Shown: positions 25,975 to 53,041 of the stretch, piece by piece
How positions within the stretch are numbered: the stretch's first letter is position 1
Layout of the letters: every line of letters starts with the position of its first letter
Source of the DNA: a bacterium
Lineage (GTDB): Bacteria > UBP15 > UBA6099
Assembly (NCBI GenBank): GCA_029564595.1
Contig: JAKQPS010000120.1
Location: 16,424-80,423 of the forward strand
Length of the DNA: 64,000 nt
Reading direction: 5' to 3'
The notes under the pieces: generated by a model
Seen by the model: the letters and a program-made list of their open reading frames with translations, nothing else
Databases searched by the model: none
Told to the model about the DNA's origin: nothing
Translations under genes and position numbers: made by a program

Positions 25975-26095
25975 TGTTCAGAAGCCGATTTTGTGTTGAA
26001 CGCAGTTCAAAAAAATCGGCGCTCCAAGAGTTTTTTTGGGAAGGGGCGCGGGGAAACCGGTTTTTGCAAAAAACGGTTGCCCCGCAAACTCATAG
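25975..26095 (-). repeat. About 120-bp repeat element, copy A (inverted relative to copy B), containing hairpin GCGGGGAAACC...GGTTGCCCCGC with TTTTTGCAAAAAA loop
   Basis: Reverse complement aligns with 28815-28935 at roughly 85 percent identity by eye; explains shared peptide strings in ORFs 25978..26694(-) and 28718..28900(+). Confidence 0.7.
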
Positions 26096-28683: not shown

Positions 28684-28720
28684 CCCCGCCGCACAAAAAA
28701 TGTGAGAAGTTTGGGAAATG

Positions 28721-28775
28721 GGGTTTGGGGAAAGAACCCTTTTCAAAGGGTTTTTCCCCAATCGCCGAAGGCGAA
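28721..28775. repeat. Palindromic element copy C (GGGGAAAGAACCCTTTT-CAAA-GGGTTTTTCCCC)
   Basis: Read directly; same family as hairpin cores at 26046-26085, 28826-28864 and 22102-22131. Confidence 0.55.
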
Positions 28776-28814
28776 AACCTCTTATATCAGCTTTTTCGGG
28801 TTTAAGGATTCTTC

Positions 28815-28935
28815 GTATGTGTGCGGGGAAACCATTTTTTGCAAAAATAGGTTTCCCCGCGCCCCTTCCAAAAAAACTCCCGGACGCCGCTTTTCGCTGA
28901 ACTCCGTTCAACGCAAAAACCGGCTTCTTTCCATA
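28815..28935 (+). repeat. About 120-bp repeat element, copy B, with hairpin GCGGGGAAACC-ATTTTTTGCAAAAATA-GGTTTCCCCGC
   Basis: Direct alignment to reverse complement of 25975-26095; together they flank the glycoside hydrolase gene in inverted orientation. Confidence 0.7.
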
Positions 28936-29190
28936 GTGAATTCCCTACTCCCGTGTTGGCAAAAAAGACGGGTTACTTAAAACAAAACATTCAATTTGCC
29001 AAATAGGGAGCATTATGATAACATCGAAGCAAAGCATTACAAAAATCGGCAATATCTAAAAAAACAATGTTCATAAGGCCTTTTATGGATTTTGAGACTT
29101 GAAGTAACAGAATATAAGGAGCATCGTATAACATCTCGCAAGTGAGTAACGTTGATGATAACTCGTAATTGTTAGTATTATCGGAGGGCT

Positions 29191-30027
29191 ATGAAAACCA
29201 AGATAATAACATTGTCGTCTGATGTTGTTGAAAAGGCTGATTTGCTTGAATATGAGAAAATGATTTTAGATAACAAAAACATAAGTGAGCACAATGCATC
29301 CAAATTCTTTGCCAAGTTTCCAAAGTTTCTTTCAATAGGCGGCTATAAAGAATTTGCAAGAGAAATAGTATTATCTACACCTCAAAATGAACAGATGTAT
29401 CGTGTGGATTTTTGTAGGAAGCGGTACGGCACATTGTACTGGGACATAGTTGAACTTAAAAGACCCGGGATTCAGGCATTGGTAAAGAAAGGAAAACATT
29501 GGCATTTTTCTGATGCGGTGCAGAAAGGGATAGATCAATCATATGATTACAGAAATTTGATGCATGATAAAACAAATATGGAATTAACAGAGAATAAAAC
29601 GGGAATTAGAATTTACAGACCCAAGATATTGCTAATTGCTGGCAGAAAAGATAACGATATCGGGGAAGATGAATTGATTGATTTGATAGATAAATACAAC
29701 CATTTTGAGTTTTTGACTTATGACGATCTTTTTAATAGTCATACAGAACACTATAAATCAACACTGATTGTTGTCCCCGTGTTCGAAGGCGATGACATAC
29801 CGATAGAAGATTCTGGGGTTCAACTTAAAAGACATATTCAAGAAATGCTAGTTGTGTTGACAAATAAGGAAAGACGTGTTCTCGAATTAAGGTTTGGATT
29901 GATTGACGGAATACCGCGTGATTGCGAAACGATAGCAGAATCAATGAATGAAAATCCAAGCAATATAAGAAAGATTGAATCAAAAGCTTTACGCAAGCTT
30001 AGGTTTCCTCCAACTACCAGACTTTAA
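29191..30027 (+). CDS. Two-domain protein: N-terminal Shedu/DUF4263-like PD-(D/E)xK nuclease-like domain fused to C-terminal sigma-70 region-4 HTH
   Basis: 278 aa, AT-rich codons, GGAGG before ATG. N-terminal FFAKFPKFLSIG...RVDFCRKRYGTLYWDIVELKRPG...QKGIDQSYDY fits D...E-x-K...Q nuclease signature; C-terminal LTNKERRVLELRFGLIDGIPRDCETIAESMNENPSNIRKIESKALRKLR is a near-textbook sigma-70 region 4.2. Confidence 0.6.
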   Translation: MKTKIITLSSDVVEKADLLEYEKMILDNKNISEHNASKFFAKFPKFLSIGGYKEFAREIVLSTPQNEQMYRVDFCRKRYGTLYWDIVELKRPGIQALVKKGKHWHFSDAVQKGIDQSYDYRNLMHDKTNMELTENKTGIRIYRPKILLIAGRKDNDIGEDELIDLIDKYNHFEFLTYDDLFNSHTEHYKSTLIVVPVFEGDDIPIEDSGVQLKRHIQEMLVVLTNKERRVLELRFGLIDGIPRDCETIAESMNENPSNIRKIESKALRKLRFPPTTRL

Positions 30028-30077
30028 GAAGTTCTTGGAAAGAAACAATTAGAGTGAATCCGAGATTGTTGTCTGTA

Positions 30078-31610
30078 TTATCGCCGGGCAGGCGATTTCT
30101 TGTCGTAAAATAGTTGCACTACTTTTTCCATTCGGGAAATTTCATTATCCGAAAGAGCCTCGAAATGGCTTGCTCGTTTCCGCCCTGAGAGTCTGCCATT
30201 GTTTTGCAGACAAAAGCGGATGAAAATGTCGATTTGCCTGTCGGGCATATCCACAATCTCCTGTATAGCTTTCTTGGTTTCATCGTAATTTGCTAGGAAT
30301 AACAATTCACCCGCCAGTTCAGTATCAATAGTCTTCTCAATGAACAGAAACAGCGCTTCTGCTTGCGGAGTCATATCAATATAGCGGTACCATTTAACCG
30401 TATCATTATGGACGGTCATACGGCCATCTTCATCAAGAGAGTATTCCACTAATGGCATTAGACGCTTTGAAAACGATTCCAAAGAAGCATCATAGTCGGC
30501 GGGATTCTTCAACATGGATGCCGACACCGGGAACATGATGCCTTCGGGTGTAAAACCGCGGCGAGCAAGAATGTTATGGATCAGAAACCGGTGAATTCTA
30601 CCATTGCCATCCTCGAACGGATGCAGAAAAACAAATCCATATGAAACGACGGCGGCGTGAATCACGGCGGGAACATTGCCCTCGTCCATGAACTTGAAGG
30701 AAATCTCTAAGCCTTCCATAAGGTCAGGCAGATTTTCAGGTTTTGGACATGCGAAGTGTATCTTTTCATTTTGCCAAGCGACCGACTCCCCCACATAATT
30801 CTGTGTGCGCCGGTAGTCGGAATCACGGAACCGCGCATCGACAATGCGATTCTGAAGCTCTATCAAACTCTTTTTATCATAAAAATCTTTTTGCTCCGCC
30901 AGTTGAAGCAGAGAAACAAATCTTTCCGTCTTATTTGAAGTGGGATTGATGTGTTCTATCTCGAAGGAAGATTTAGTTTCTTTGGCGTAGAGATAACCAA
31001 GAGCGCGCTTTAGCATTTCCGGAGGATAGGCTGATACAACTTGGCGGCATCTATCGGGAAGGTTTGTTTTTTCGAAGTCGCGAAGGATATCTGTGCGACG
31101 AACCGAAGGACAGAACTGGTGATTTCCCAATAAATTATCATTGATTCGTTGGCGACGGACTATGCGGGCTGGAGAAACCGTATAGTATTCTGATGATTCT
31201 AGCAGATCGACATAGTTGCCCCTCTTCAAGTCGGCTAACGGGAGTTTTTTGCCTGTGAGAAACTCGTATAGGAACCATAGTCGCCTTACGTACTTGCCAC
31301 TAGGTTTGGACTGCGCATATTCGAGAAAATCTTTTTCTTCTATTTCTTGAAATAAACTGGCTAGTATCGCAAGGTTCGTGCCGTCATACTTAAGCGCGAA
31401 TTCAAGATGATCTCCCAGCATATCCCCGGGCCAATACTTAAGCGGAAAAACTTCCTCAATCACGCCGCCGGAAGAATCAACTTGATGTATTCCGGAGTTA
31501 ATGACAAAGGAAATATGCCAATTTGGGATGACATCAAGGTCGTACCGCTCGACAAGCGCCGCATATCCTGCGGGTCTGCGGGTCGATTCGTCTTTGTCTT
31601 TTTCAGACAT
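30078..31610 (-). CDS. Fic family protein (AMPylation/phosphocholination-type Fic/Doc enzyme)
   Basis: Start at ATG 31610 (MSEKDKDES) behind GGAGG; canonical Fic motif HPFEDGNGRIHR; SFEIEH segment about 100 aa upstream could be an inhibitory-helix-like motif. ORF-track start 31664 lacks RBS. Confidence 0.85.
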   Translation of the reverse strand: MSEKDKDESTRRPAGYAALVERYDLDVIPNWHISFVINSGIHQVDSSGGVIEEVFPLKYWPGDMLGDHLEFALKYDGTNLAILASLFQEIEEKDFLEYAQSKPSGKYVRRLWFLYEFLTGKKLPLADLKRGNYVDLLESSEYYTVSPARIVRRQRINDNLLGNHQFCPSVRRTDILRDFEKTNLPDRCRQVVSAYPPEMLKRALGYLYAKETKSSFEIEHINPTSNKTERFVSLLQLAEQKDFYDKKSLIELQNRIVDARFRDSDYRRTQNYVGESVAWQNEKIHFACPKPENLPDLMEGLEISFKFMDEGNVPAVIHAAVVSYGFVFLHPFEDGNGRIHRFLIHNILARRGFTPEGIMFPVSASMLKNPADYDASLESFSKRLMPLVEYSLDEDGRMTVHNDTVKWYRYIDMTPQAEALFLFIEKTIDTELAGELLFLANYDETKKAIQEIVDMPDRQIDIFIRFCLQNNGRLSGRKRASHFEALSDNEISRMEKVVQLFYDKKSPARR

Positions 31611-31619
31611 GACTTCCTC

Positions 31620-31811
31620 CAGAAAAACGCTTACAACACGAGAATTATAGTTATATTTTAGCATGTGGCAAGAAAAACAGTTACGGCGGCAAATGCTGTA
31701 AGCTTCTTAGTCTGACAAGAAAAACGCTTACAAGGCAAGAAAAACGCTTACATAACAGCCTGCGACAAGAAAAACGCTTACAACGCGGCCTGTGGCAAGA
31801 AAAACAGTTAT
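31620..31811 (+). repeat. Array of six direct repeats CAAGAAAAAC(G/A)(C/G)TTAC (iteron-like) upstream of the Fic gene
   Basis: Copies at 31620, 31669, 31717, 31736, 31766, 31796 read directly; first copy degenerate; spacings 19-48 bp. Confidence 0.8.
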
Positions 31812-31856
31812 GTCGGCGCGGGCGGATGTAGGAACGCGCCGGCGGTGTATAATGAG

Positions 31857-31964
31857 CACGAATCCGTCATTAGGATTCGGGGGCGATTTTTCGGTACGGA
31901 TAAATCGCGGGACGCAAGCCGCGTTTTTACAGTGGATAGAACATAGGGTTCATAAACAAAAAAA
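31857..31964 (+). repeat. About 105-bp repeated element, copy 1 (GAATCC-N7-GGATTC hairpin, then ATAGAACATAGGGTTCATAAACAAAAA)
   Basis: Shares both end motifs and their 65-bp spacing with 52938-53041; interior roughly 65 percent identical by eye. Confidence 0.55.
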
Positions 31965-32178
31965 GGGTGGCTCCCTCAAGTTGCTCTTGGGGGCGAGAAG
32001 CGGTTCGCCGCTATGAAAACCGCCCCGGTTCGTCGGCTCTATCGAGGAATCCGGTATAGTTGCGACATAGAGCATTGAAGCCCCTCTGGAATTGGCGCGC
32101 CGGTTGAAGTAGAATGATTTCGTAGAATCCATTTACTGGATTCCGGTTGGAAAAAGAGCAGCCGAAGGAACGCAAATA

Positions 32179-41930: not shown

Positions 41931-42150
41931 TTTTCGCCTCCGTGTTTTGCCGCAGTTGCATTTTCAAATTAATTATACAGCTCGCGAATGAATTACATGT
42001 TAATTAAATATTATGTTTGTGTTAACTCAGAATTGCTAAGTTAAAAAAACGCTTTGAAGCTTATCTGCGCCTTTTCCCAATCCGCCGATTCAACGCGGAT
42101 TCGTCTATAGAGCGGACGAAGCGTGGCAATTTTCATAGCGGCGGATCGCG

Positions 42151-52842: not shown

Positions 52843-52916
52843 GGCTAGGTAGCTCAGCTGGTCAGAGCACACGGCTCATACCCGTGGCGTCGCCGGTTCA
52901 AATCCGGCCCTAGCTA
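52843..52916 (+). tRNA. tRNA with anticodon CAT (Met; initiator, elongator or Ile-lysidine not resolved)
   Basis: Hand-folded cloverleaf: acceptor GGCTAGG/CCTAGCT (G1-U72), D-arm GCTC-AGCTGGTCA-GAGC, anticodon arm CACGG-CTCATAC-CCGTG with three G-C pairs next to the loop, T-arm GCCGG-TTCAAAT-CCGGC; CCA not encoded. Confidence 0.85.
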
Positions 52917-52937
52917 CTATCATAAATACAAATAACC

Positions 52938-53041
52938 CGAATCCTTCGCTAGGATTCTGTCGCGATTGTTCCCAACAGATGAAATGCGAGGCGCAAAGCG
53001 CTTTTTTGCTTTGAATAGAACATAAGGTTCATGAACAAAAA
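52938..53041 (+). repeat. About 105-bp repeated element, copy 2, beginning 22 bp after the tRNA
   Basis: CGAATCC-N5-TAGGATTC hairpin start and ATAGAACATAAGGTTCATGAACAAAAA end with the same 65-bp spacing as copy 1 at 31857-31964; partial third motif GCATAGGTTCATAGA at 53156-53170. Confidence 0.55.

What the first reader, a model, noticed from the sequence alone, without database searches (positions are those of the whole stretch)
28950..31815. Low-GC island encoding a Shedu-like nuclease fused to a sigma-70 region-4 HTH, convergent with a Fic enzyme
Two AT-rich genes sit inside high-GC chromosome. Gene 29191-30027 pairs an N-terminal region with a PD-(D/E)xK-type signature (RVDFC ... IVELKRPG ... 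QKGIDQSYDY, preceded by FFAKFPKFLSIG) reminiscent of the DUF4263 nuclease of Shedu defence proteins with a C-terminal segment that is almost a textbook sigma-70 region 4.2 (RVLELRFGL...NIRKIESKALRKLR). I do not know this architecture as a described family. Its convergent partner is a full-length Fic protein (HPFEDGNGRIHR). The island is bounded on the left by palindromic elements and on the right by six direct repeats. No integrase is present. This is the best candidate in the window for an undescribed defence or stress module.
Basis: partly seen in the sequence, partly recalled or inferred. Interest (0 to 1): 0.85.

Follow-up and report, generated by a model that had tools for sequence, protein, structure and literature searches.

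The report
Shedu nuclease with sigma-factor tail
A foreign, AT-rich gene encodes a Shedu-type anti-phage nuclease with an unusual C-terminal tail: a copy of the promoter-binding domain of the main bacterial sigma factor that has lost its promoter-reading residues. The Fic gene next to it is an unrelated, separately acquired neighbour, not its partner.

Summary
The sequence observation holds: two intact, convergent, low-GC genes sit in a 62 % GC chromosome of a candidate-phylum UBP15 bacterium. Gene A (29191-30027, 278 aa) is a Shedu/DUF4263 PD-(D/E)xK nuclease above Pfam's cut-off, with catalytic motifs D73, E88-x-K90 and Q116 and a fold match to B. cereus Shedu. It is fused to a group-1 sigma-factor region 4. 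The fusion is very rare, found in 3 protein clusters among billions.

An exhaustive profile search places it in an unclassified Shedu sub-clade. In that sub-clade the nuclease is N-terminal and the C-terminal slot is hypervariable (PAS, GAF, STAS, MraZ, CSD, RRM, TIR, inactive REase and others; 47 tail types in 63 proteins). The sigma-4 tail keeps region 4.1 and the distal recognition helix. In both diverged orthologues it has lost every -35-reading residue (R584/E585/R586).

The two-gene module idea fails. The Fic gene belongs to PADLOC candidate PDC-S24, a huge cross-phylum family that stands alone elsewhere. The six repeats are that family's own conserved promoter/operator array. Sister genomes carry other cargo at the same site.

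Verdict: a new architectural variant of Shedu lying next to an independent Fic gene. The role of the sigma-4 tail, DNA tether or protein bait, remains open.

The parts
28684..28930 (.). REP-like palindromic repeats forming the left border of the variable slot (host genome repeat, not part of the cargo)
   Evidence: Inverted repeats at 28720-28766 and 28809-28874. Copies occur at 25980-26089 and several in L002, L020 and L022. GC 0.48.
28931..29190 (+). AT-rich upstream region of gene A (GC 0.36) with weak sigma-70-like promoter matches; no convincing operator motif found
   Evidence: Promoter-like sites at 28996-29024 and 29152-29181, 9/12 each. Sister genome L022 loses collinearity at 28973. 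The repeat search found only weak two-copy matches.
29191..30027 (+). Gene A: 278-aa Shedu-type nuclease fused to a sigma-4-derived domain (protein P0001 / NCBI HOC92037.1)
   Evidence: The identical protein is found on 12 metagenome contigs, all at the same locus.
29284..29730 (+). DUF4263/SduA_C PD-(D/E)xK nuclease core (res 32-180). Motif II is D73 (29407-29409), motif III is E88/K90 (29452-29460), motif IV is Q116 (29536-29538), and motif I is probably E33 (29287-29289)
   Evidence: Pfam match. Profile alignment to B. cereus SduA 8ti8 maps D249/E264/K266/Q295, with motif definitions from Gu et al.. These residues are invariant or nearly so in 63 sub-clade members. AF2 pLDDT is above 90 and the Foldseek top hit is 8ti9.
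29758..29814 (+). Flexible linker (res 190-208) between the nuclease and the sigma-4 domain
   Evidence: Block-mean pLDDT falls to 52-64 here against more than 90 in both flanking domains; no secondary structure is predicted.
29815..30009 (+). Sigma-70 region-4-derived four-helix HTH domain (res 209-273). Region 4.1 and the distal recognition helix are kept; the -35-reading face is replaced; the tail after sigma70 P601 is absent
   Evidence: Pfam Sigma70_r4. PDB SigA/RpoD region 4 hits at 4e-10. Per-position comparison with 68 sigma factors and block identities. Model helices are at 209-220, 225-234, 245-251 and 256-271.
30078..31610 (-). Independent Fic gene (510 aa from M19; the ORF is open to 31664). 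PADLOC candidate family PDC-S24. Fic motif HPFEDGNGRIHR lies at 30588-30623
   Evidence: PDC-S24 5.6e-180 over nearly the full length, and Pfam Fic 56 bits. More than 6,700 homologues, 75-80 % identical across phyla. It stands alone in L009, L011, L013 and L014. Sister-genome collinearity ends at 30079.
31621..31811 (-). Fic promoter/operator array: six direct repeats (Fic-sense GTAAGCGTTTTTCTTG) at 31621, 31671, 31718, 31738, 31768 and 31798. The -35 TTGCCA (31671-31666) lies inside copy 2, and the -10 TATAAT is at 31649-31644
   Evidence: The best promoter match in the region scores 11/12. Motif, spacing and distance to the ATG are conserved upstream of Fic homologues in other phyla. Three orphan copies remain in L022 without a Fic gene.
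31861..32055 (.). Dispersed host repeat forming the right border of the slot, before rarA (32179)
   Evidence: Partial copies at window 52938-53041 and 42096-42149, L022 742-932 and L002 11766-11823. No Rfam match.

Best explanation
Gene A is a single-protein Shedu-type immune nuclease of an 'inverted' architectural sub-clade. The DUF4263 PD-(D/E)xK core, which in studied Shedu proteins tetramerises and cuts DNA, sits at the N-terminus. A hypervariable accessory domain sits at the C-terminus behind a flexible linker, in the position that the N-terminal sensor domains occupy in canonical Shedu.

In this protein and two relatives the accessory domain was derived from region 4 of a housekeeping sigma factor. 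It keeps the four-helix HTH fold, region 4.1, the backbone-contacting basic residues and the distal recognition helix. It has lost every residue that reads the -35 hexamer, so it is not a promoter-recognition module.

By analogy with canonical Shedu, I infer that the tail is the sensor or tether that gates the nuclease.
- My preferred sub-mechanism (about 45 %) is sequence-relaxed or re-targeted binding of double-stranded DNA, which recruits or activates the tetramer on invading DNA.
- The main alternative (about 30 %) is that it works through protein contacts inherited from sigma.

The adjacent Fic gene with its six-repeat promoter array is a separate, widely mobile single-gene unit (PADLOC candidate PDC-S24). 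It landed in the same cargo-exchange hotspot between the melibiase gene and rarA. The two genes are neighbours, not a module.

Shown: domain identities, catalytic motifs, fold, sub-clade architecture, erosion of the sigma-4 reading face, and independence of Fic. Inferred: anti-phage role, tetramer gating, and what the tail binds.
For: - Domain calls: Pfam SduA_C and Sigma70_r4 both exceed the curated cut-offs, and PADLOC SduA models hit down to 2e-14.
- Active site: motifs II-IV align to the residues shown essential in B. cereus Shedu and are conserved in 63 relatives.
- Fold: AF2 pLDDT 89.8; Foldseek top hit is the Shedu nuclease 8ti9, and sigma-4 matches 8cyf_B with TM 0.67.
- Sub-clade: in the exhaustive HMM search of 1.84 billion representatives, every listed hit at E<1e-30 that is not a short fragment has the nuclease at residues ~1-205 followed by a tail (one exception), while the weaker listed hits are mostly classic C-terminal-nuclease Shedu. 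Of the top 150, 63 are N-terminal-nuclease proteins whose tails fall into 47 unrelated clusters. Their Pfam domains include PAS, STAS, GAF, Mrr_cat, NA-iREase1, MraZ, CSD, RRM, Zn-finger, TIR and retropepsin.
- Rarity: only P0001-3 carry sigma-4.
- Sigma-4 erosion: positions L573, E575-G577, V582-R586 and H600, all at least 91 % invariant in 68 sigma factors, differ in both fusion orthologues, while 555-571 and 587-599 stay sigma-like. P0001 against P0003 is 15/17, 2/15 and 8/13 identical in those blocks, Fisher p = 8e-5.
- Retained DNA-backbone contacts: the equivalents of R554, R562, E574, R588 and K593 are kept, at least conservatively (contact roles from my own knowledge of the Taq sigma-4/-35 DNA structure).
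- Fic independence.
- Hotspot: three sister UBP15 genomes carry three different cargos between the same flanks.
- Defence-type neighbours: a sub-clade member sits next to PADLOC candidate PDC-S06.
Against: - No experiment exists on any member of this sub-clade. The anti-phage role rests on homology to Shedu and on context.
- The part of the HTH that should touch DNA is the least conserved part between the two orthologues (2/15), which is odd for a domain selected to bind DNA.
- No repeated candidate target site was found near the gene.
- The sister-genome copy (L002) has a 1-nt indel near codon 42, so the gene may be dispensable or decaying there.
- PADLOC's closest N-terminal-nuclease SduA model matches only weakly, at 1e-4.
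- The sigma factors used for the conservation analysis were retrieved by similarity to this protein, which inflates the apparent conservation of the retained blocks.
Confidence: 0.72

Rival explanations
1. Integrated bait. The sigma-4 tail is a mimic of the host sigma factor's region 4. It has stopped reading DNA but still presents the surfaces that phage sigma-appropriating or anti-sigma proteins bind (T4 AsiA, phage G1 ORF67 and P23-45 gp39 types), or that the RNA polymerase beta-flap binds. Capture of such a protein releases the nuclease.
For: - Region 4.1 (15/17) and the distal recognition helix are far better conserved between the two fusion orthologues than the proteins overall (46 %) and remain sigma-A-like. 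The DNA-reading block has drifted to 2/15.
- Conserved charged surface residues R596, K597 and R599 face away from DNA in sigma70 (own knowledge).
- The closest solved sequence, 4g6d, is SigA region 4; from my own knowledge, that entry is its complex with phage G1 ORF67.
- The C-terminal slot of the sub-clade also hosts non-DNA sensor domains: PAS, GAF, STAS.
Against: - There is no direct evidence of any protein partner.
- The C-terminal tail of sigma region 4 (sigma70 602-613, including L607), which helps clamp the beta-flap tip, is missing, and the H600/P601 motif is altered.
- The host's own sigma-A could not be retrieved for comparison.
- Only two diverged sequences support the conservation pattern.
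- DNA-binding accessory domains are the norm in Shedu (Gu et al.; KELShedu).
Confidence: 0.2
2. Gene A and Fic form one two-gene defence or stress module, with the sigma-4 domain binding the six repeats at 31620-31811.
For: The two genes are adjacent, convergent and both low-GC. Each repeat ends in a -35-like TTGYCR. Both genes match PADLOC models.
Against: - Orthologues of gene A in L001 and L002 lack Fic.
- Four distant Fic loci lack any Shedu gene.
- The repeats are conserved with Fic across phyla and are absent from L002, whose sigma-4 is identical.
- Collinearity with the sister genome ends at the Fic stop codon.
- GC differs: 0.35 against 0.45.
- The -35-reading residues are gone.
- The Fic family has thousands of members while the fusion has three clusters.
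Confidence: 0.04
3. Gene A is not an immune gene. It could be a DNA-repair or recombination nuclease, or a self-regulating HTH protein of a mobile element, or it could be a decaying passenger with no current function.
For: The L002 copy has a frameshifting indel. No validated defence gene is adjacent in the window. PD-(D/E)xK nucleases have many roles. No member of the sub-clade has been tested.
Against: - The ORF is intact and identical on 12 contigs from several samples.
- A 46 % orthologue retains the full architecture and the catalytic residues.
- DUF4263 is so far known only from Shedu-type defence.
- The hypervariable accessory slot, the foreign GC and the location in a cargo-exchange hotspot are hallmarks of defence genes.
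Confidence: 0.08

Closest known systems
Shedu (SduA), e.g. Bacillus cereus B4264 SduA (PDB 8ti8/8ti9) and E. coli SduA (8ps4)
   Same: The same DUF4263 PD-(D/E)xK nuclease core with motifs II-IV (D, ExK, Q) in place. The fold matches (TM 0.68 to 8ti9). The logic is the same: a single gene combining a conserved nuclease with a swappable accessory domain.
   Different: The domain order is inverted, with the nuclease N-terminal and the accessory domain C-terminal. Sequence identity to solved Shedu proteins is only about 16 %. The accessory domain is sigma-derived, which is not among the 79 N-terminal families that Gu et al. catalogued; they left proteins with long C-terminal extensions unclassified ('Type 1X').
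Type 2 Shedu / PD-T4-8 (DUF4263-only proteins)
   Same: Short N-terminus before the nuclease. An N-terminus-only classification such as that of Gu et al. would file gene A here.
   Different: Gene A has a structured 70-residue C-terminal domain behind a linker, and its sub-clade has 47 or more kinds of such tails. It is therefore unlikely to be an unregulated, restriction-enzyme-like nuclease.
KELShedu two-component system (KELA dsDNA-binding protein + KELB DUF4263 nuclease)
   Same: It pairs a DUF4263 nuclease with a DNA-binding module. The orthologue in L001 is preceded by an XRE-type HTH gene.
   Different: Here the HTH module is fused in cis and is sigma-derived. No KELA-like partner is present in the window.
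Region 4 of group-1 sigma factors (RpoD/SigA)
   Same: About 50 % identity. The four-helix fold is kept, region 4.1 'ERRVLELRFGLIDG' and 'IExKALRKLR' are nearly identical to the consensus.
   Different: Regions 1-3 are absent, so it is not a sigma factor. The -35-reading residues R584/E585/R586 are replaced by P/S/N (S/N/Q in P0003). The tail after P601 is missing.
MzaA of the MZA anti-phage system
   Same: Another defence-associated protein with a sigma-70-like C-terminal region. Gene A's tail matches its models (PADLOC 1.9e-5, NCBIfam 3.9e-9).
   Different: MzaA is a protein of about 700 aa within a multi-gene system and has no DUF4263 nuclease. I found no paper to compare mechanisms.
PADLOC candidate PDC-S24 / Fic AMP-transferases (for the neighbouring gene)
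   Same: Full-length match at 5.6e-180, with the canonical HPFx(D/E)GNGRxxR motif.
   Different: It is only a candidate defence family, and I found no paper on it. Its conserved upstream repeat array does not seem to be described.

Membership tests
Shedu (SduA) nuclease family | DUF4263 / SduA_C domain above the curated threshold | tested here: met
   Pfam PF14082 45.4 bits against a gathering score of 27. Eight PADLOC SduA models match, the best at 2.4e-14.
Shedu (SduA) nuclease family | PD-(D/E)xK active-site motifs I-IV (B. cereus E204, D249, E264/K266, Q295) | tested here: met
   The profile alignment to 8ti8 maps D73, E88/K90 and Q116, using motif definitions. These residues are nearly invariant in 63 relatives. 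Motif I is only inferred, as E33.
Shedu (SduA) nuclease family | Shedu nuclease fold | tested here: met
   AF2 model with pLDDT 89.8. The Foldseek PDB top hit is 8ti9_B (E 2.9e-6, TM 0.68 normalised to the target).
Shedu (SduA) nuclease family | Canonical architecture: N-terminal sensor domain, nuclease at the C-terminus | tested here: not met
   The nuclease occupies residues 32-180 of 278 and the accessory domain is C-terminal. The same holds for 63 of the top 150 relatives.
Shedu (SduA) nuclease family | Homotetramer/octamer assembly and anti-phage activity | not testable with these tools
   Only single-chain prediction was available, and no experiment exists on this sub-clade.
Sigma-70 family sigma factor | Region 4 domain | tested here: met
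   Pfam PF04545 34.7 bits against a cut-off of 24.1. phmmer against PDB SigA/RpoD region 4 gives 4e-10.
Sigma-70 family sigma factor | Region 2 (core binding, -10 recognition) and region 3 | tested here: not met
   No Sigma70_r2 or r3 match at E<=1. NCBIfam sigma models match only their C-terminal ~65 residues, far below the cut-offs.
Sigma-70 family sigma factor | -35-reading residues of region 4.2 (E. coli R584, E585, R586, with T583/L573) | tested here: not met
   These are P/S/N in P0001 and S/N/Q in P0003, at positions that are 100 % invariant in 68 sigma factors.
   L001 and L002 have gene A without Fic. L009, L011, L013 and L014 have Fic without gene A.
   The repeats are absent from L002 and L001. 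They are conserved upstream of Fic in other phyla.
PADLOC PDC-S24 (Fic candidate defence gene) | Full-length match to the family HMM and an intact Fic motif | tested here: met
   PDLC04966 5.6e-180, residues 29-522 aligned to profile positions 4-491 of 497. HPFEDGNGRIHR lies at 30588-30623.
PADLOC PDC-S24 (Fic candidate defence gene) | Demonstrated anti-phage function | not testable with these tools
   No paper in the library mentions PDC-S24.
Integrase-mobilised genomic island | Integrase/recombinase and a tRNA or att boundary | tested here: not met
   No integrase is called within 10 kb on either side. The only tRNA in the window is at 52843. The borders are host dispersed repeats.

The most novel reading that the evidence does not exclude
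The sigma-4 tail is an integrated decoy. It is a copy of the host sigma factor's region 4 that no longer reads promoters, and it serves as bait for phage proteins that hijack transcription by binding sigma region 4 or the beta-flap (AsiA, ORF67 and gp39-like). Capture of the phage factor switches on the Shedu nuclease. This would be a bacterial counterpart of the integrated-decoy domains of plant NLR immune receptors, and a direct sensor of transcription takeover.
Probability: 0.2. Interest if true: 0.85.

Novelty: new variant of a known kind. Interest (0 to 1): 0.52.

Why it matters
Shedu is currently understood as a C-terminal nuclease governed by N-terminal sensor domains. This locus points to a sizeable, unclassified sub-clade: about 70 representatives at 50 % identity, built the other way round, with a C-terminal slot at least as variable (47 tail types in 63 proteins). 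That extends the catalogue of signals Shedu nucleases may sense, and it gives a compact 278-aa test case.

The sigma-derived tail is the most intriguing of these. A housekeeping transcription domain has been recruited into an immune nuclease and stripped of its promoter-reading residues. If it turns out to be bait for phage transcription-takeover factors, it would be a new sensing principle in bacterial immunity. If it is a relaxed DNA tether, it is another example of domain shuffling.

Separately, the PDC-S24 Fic family's conserved repeat array, with a built-in -35 element, is an unreported regulatory feature of a very widespread mobile gene.

Tried and rejected
- Sigma-4 binding to the Fic repeats: rejected on comparative grounds.
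- An operator for the tail in gene A's own upstream region: only weak two-copy matches, and GATAACWYS is not enriched (5 found against 2.5 expected; 7 of 100 shuffles reach 5).
- First AF2 run with 6 sequences: unusable, pLDDT 52. Replaced by the 63-sequence run.
- Phage and plasmid collections: only sigma factors match the tail; there is no full-length relative.
- Rfam over the island and its borders: nothing.
- Species-representative genomes: no genome encodes the WDIVELKRPG core pattern. The second scan served only to name the host lineage, UBP15.
L002, L020 and L022 were used instead.
- Literature on MzaA, PDC-S24, and sigma region 4 as a decoy: nothing usable.
- Prophage origin of gene A: considered because L002 has Mu-like portal and terminase genes about 3 kb away. 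Rejected because host REP elements and other genes separate them, and the window has no phage genes.
- Host sigma-A for comparison with the tail: could not be retrieved with the tools available.


Full report
**1. Observation**

The region contains exactly two long ORFs, 29191-30027 (+, 278 aa) and 30078-31664 (-, 528 aa). They converge with a 50-bp gap. GC drops from about 0.62 in the flanking melibiase and rarA genes to 0.35 in gene A and 0.45 in the Fic gene.

The left border carries REP-like palindromes that recur elsewhere in the window and in sister genomes.

The right border carries six copies of AGAAAAACRSTTAY at 31621-31811. Five of them match the 15-mer consensus within two mismatches. 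The window-wide expectation is 0.16, and none of 100 shuffles reached the observed count.

**2. What gene A is**

- *Domain calls.* Pfam assigns residues 32-180 to SduA_C/DUF4263 (45.4 bits, cut-off 27) and residues 220-271 to Sigma70_r4 (34.7 bits, cut-off 24.1). Eight PADLOC SduA models match, the best at 2.4e-14.
- *Active site.* A profile of 63 relatives aligns to the solved B. cereus and E. coli Shedu proteins. This places D73, E88/K90 and Q116 on the residues that Gu et al. define as motifs II, III and IV; their D249 and E264 mutants abolish defence. These residues are invariant or nearly so across the relatives.
- *Structure.* With that alignment AlphaFold2 gives pLDDT 89.8. The model has two confident domains joined by a low-confidence linker at residues 190-208. 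Foldseek's best PDB hit is the Shedu nuclease octamer 8ti9, and the tail matches SigA region 4.

**3. The family it belongs to**

The fusion itself is very rare. Among 5.8 billion protein clusters only three carry both domains:
- the window protein, found on 12 contigs, all at the same locus;
- an 83 % relative;
- a 46 % relative.

An exhaustive HMM search of 1.84 billion representatives with the nuclease core found 2,004 hits. Every listed hit at E<1e-30 that is not a short fragment has the nuclease at residues ~1-205 followed by a 60-230-residue tail, with one exception (P0186). The weaker listed hits are mostly classic Shedu with the nuclease at the C-terminal end.

Of the top 150 hits, 63 have the N-terminal-nuclease architecture, and their tails fall into 47 unrelated clusters. 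Pfam recognises PAS, STAS, GAF, Mrr_cat, NA-iREase1, MraZ, CSD, RRM, a zinc finger, TIR, bactofilin and retropepsin among them.

Gene A is therefore one member of a Shedu sub-clade with a hypervariable C-terminal slot. Gu et al. classified only N-terminal domains. They mention in passing 163 unclassified proteins with more than 100 residues C-terminal to DUF4263. Zhang et al. likewise describe DUF4263 as predominantly C-terminal. I found no description of a sigma-derived domain on Shedu.

**4. The sigma-4 tail**

The tail is about 50 % identical to region 4 of housekeeping sigma factors. I aligned it with 68 full-length sigma factors and numbered it on E. coli sigma70. The numbering and the functional roles of residues come from my own knowledge.

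| Block (sigma70 numbering) | P0001 vs P0003 identity | State |
|---|---|---|
| 555-571 (region 4.1 / helix 2) | 15/17 | sigma-like in both orthologues |
| 572-586 (first HTH helix, turn, start of recognition helix) | 2/15 | 2/15 and 3/15 identical to the sigma consensus |
| 587-599 (rest of recognition helix) | 8/13 | sigma-like in both orthologues |

Block 572-586 contains the -35-reading residues R584/E585/R586. The contrast between it and the flanking blocks gives Fisher p = 8e-5. The tail after P601 is absent.

The domain therefore cannot recognise a -35 hexamer in the way sigma does. Conservative retention of backbone-contact positions (R554, R562, E574, R588, K593) is compatible with relaxed DNA binding. 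Strong retention of region 4.1 and of R596/K597/R599 is compatible with protein contacts inherited from sigma. The data do not decide between these.

One caveat applies: the sigma set was retrieved by similarity to the query.

**5. The Fic gene and the repeats**

- *Family.* The Fic protein matches PADLOC candidate PDC-S24 over its full length (5.6e-180) and has a canonical Fic motif. It belongs to a family with more than 6,700 members, 75-80 % identical across Desulfobacterales, Pseudomonadota and Actinobacteria.
- *Context.* In four distant genomes it stands alone, with no Shedu-like neighbour.
- *Repeats.* Those loci carry the same upstream repeats (GTAAnCnTTTTTCTTG in Fic sense). The spacing (30/20/46-50 bp) and the distance to the ATG are conserved, as are a -10 element and an RBS.
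- *Promoter.* In the window the best promoter match (11/12) is TTGCCA-16-TATAAT on the Fic strand, with the -35 inside repeat 2 and repeat 1 just downstream of the predicted start. The repeats are thus the Fic family's own promoter/operator array. The factor that binds them is unknown.
- *Start codon.* The true Fic start is M19, at 31610.

**6. Independence of the two genes and the hotspot**

The host is an uncultured anaerobic-digester lineage of candidate phylum UBP15.

| Genome (locus) | Cargo after melibiase + REP |
|---|---|
| Window | gene A, then Fic |
| ADurb.Bin236 (L020) and a matching metagenome contig (L002) | L002: collinear through gene A to window position 30079 (the Fic stop), then a 187-aa membrane protein, unknown genes and Mu-like phage genes. 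L020's stored stretch ends inside gene A |
| UBA6099 (L022) | collinear only to 28973; a 499-aa GHKL-ATPase protein; three orphan Fic-type repeats without Fic; the same 187-aa gene |

The 46 % orthologue (L001) sits elsewhere, behind an XRE-type HTH gene. The Fic repeat motif is absent from L002, although its sigma-4 domain is identical.

The melibiase-rarA gap is therefore a cargo-exchange hotspot. Gene A and Fic are separate acquisitions, which fits their different GC.

**7. Mechanism**

*Shown:* an intact Shedu-type active site and fold, an inverted architecture with a linker-tethered accessory domain, and loss of -35 reading.

*Inferred from the B. cereus and E. coli Shedu work:* the nuclease domains tetramerise, and the accessory domain gates or targets cleavage of invading DNA.

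For the tail:
- I favour relaxed or re-targeted dsDNA binding (about 45 %). Nucleic-acid-binding accessory modules dominate Shedu, and the backbone-contact residues persist.
- A sigma-mimic bait or RNAP-docking role is the main alternative (about 30 % in all, of which about 20 % is the phage-factor decoy). It explains better why the DNA-reading face is the least conserved part.

**8. Verdict**

This is a real and rare new architectural variant of a known defence nuclease family, next to an independent Fic gene. The two-gene module and the role assigned to the repeats were not.

Interest is moderate. Shedu is already known for domain shuffling, but the inverted sub-clade and a de-specified sigma domain used as an immune accessory are both unreported and directly testable.

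Noticed in passing
window 31621-31811; L011 4840-4990; L013 4831-4942; L014 4870-4942; L009 4928-4942: The PDC-S24 Fic family carries a conserved upstream array of GTAAnCnTTTTTCTTG repeats. The promoter -35 hexamer is built into the proximal copy. Spacing and distance to the ATG are conserved across phyla. It looks like an autoregulatory operator array, and the binding factor is unknown.
   Followed up: partly
L022 7607-9106 and 9327-9392: Sister genome UBA6099 has a 499-aa GHKL-ATPase (HATPase_c_3) protein in the same slot, with a C-terminal D...ELK nuclease-like motif. Three orphan Fic-type repeats follow it with no Fic gene, which suggests cargo replacement by recombination within or near the repeat array. 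The protein has no PADLOC match.
   Followed up: partly
L002 4188-5025: The 83 %-identical copy of gene A in the ADurb.Bin236-like strain has a 1-nt indel near codon 42 that splits the ORF into 52 aa and 230 aa. It is either a pseudogene or an assembly error.
   Followed up: partly
window 31861-32055, 52938-53041, 42096-42149; L022 742-932; L002 11766-11823: A dispersed repeat of about 100-195 bp in this lineage. One copy forms the right border of the slot and another lies next to tRNA-Met (52843-52917). It has no Rfam match.
   Followed up: partly
window 28704-28929 and 25980-26089: REP-like palindromic elements flank the melibiase gene on both sides. They generate spurious ORFs with the peptide FFAKxGFPAPLPKK on both strands.
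   Followed up: partly
protein P0105 (466 aa, NCBI, 5.9-kb contig): A non-sigma protein that combines a Macro domain with an intact sigma region 4 ([22 protein letters not shown]) and a long C-terminal extension. It is another case of sigma-4 recruited outside a sigma factor.
   Followed up: no
L016 5240-9035: A sub-clade member with a retropepsin-like tail (P0123) lies directly downstream of an 889-aa AAA_13 ATPase that matches PADLOC candidate PDC-S06 (6.6e-188). The two are possibly a pair.
   Followed up: partly
L001 9417-10846: The 46 % orthologue of gene A is preceded, 54 bp upstream on the same strand, by a 176-aa XRE-type HTH gene. This is possibly a regulator of the kind seen next to many defence systems.
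   Followed up: partly
window 30918-30971 (Fic residues 232-249 in 528-aa numbering): The segment KSSFEIEHINP resembles the inhibitory-helix motif (S/T)xxxE(G/N) of auto-inhibited Fic enzymes, but has H in place of G/N.
   Followed up: no
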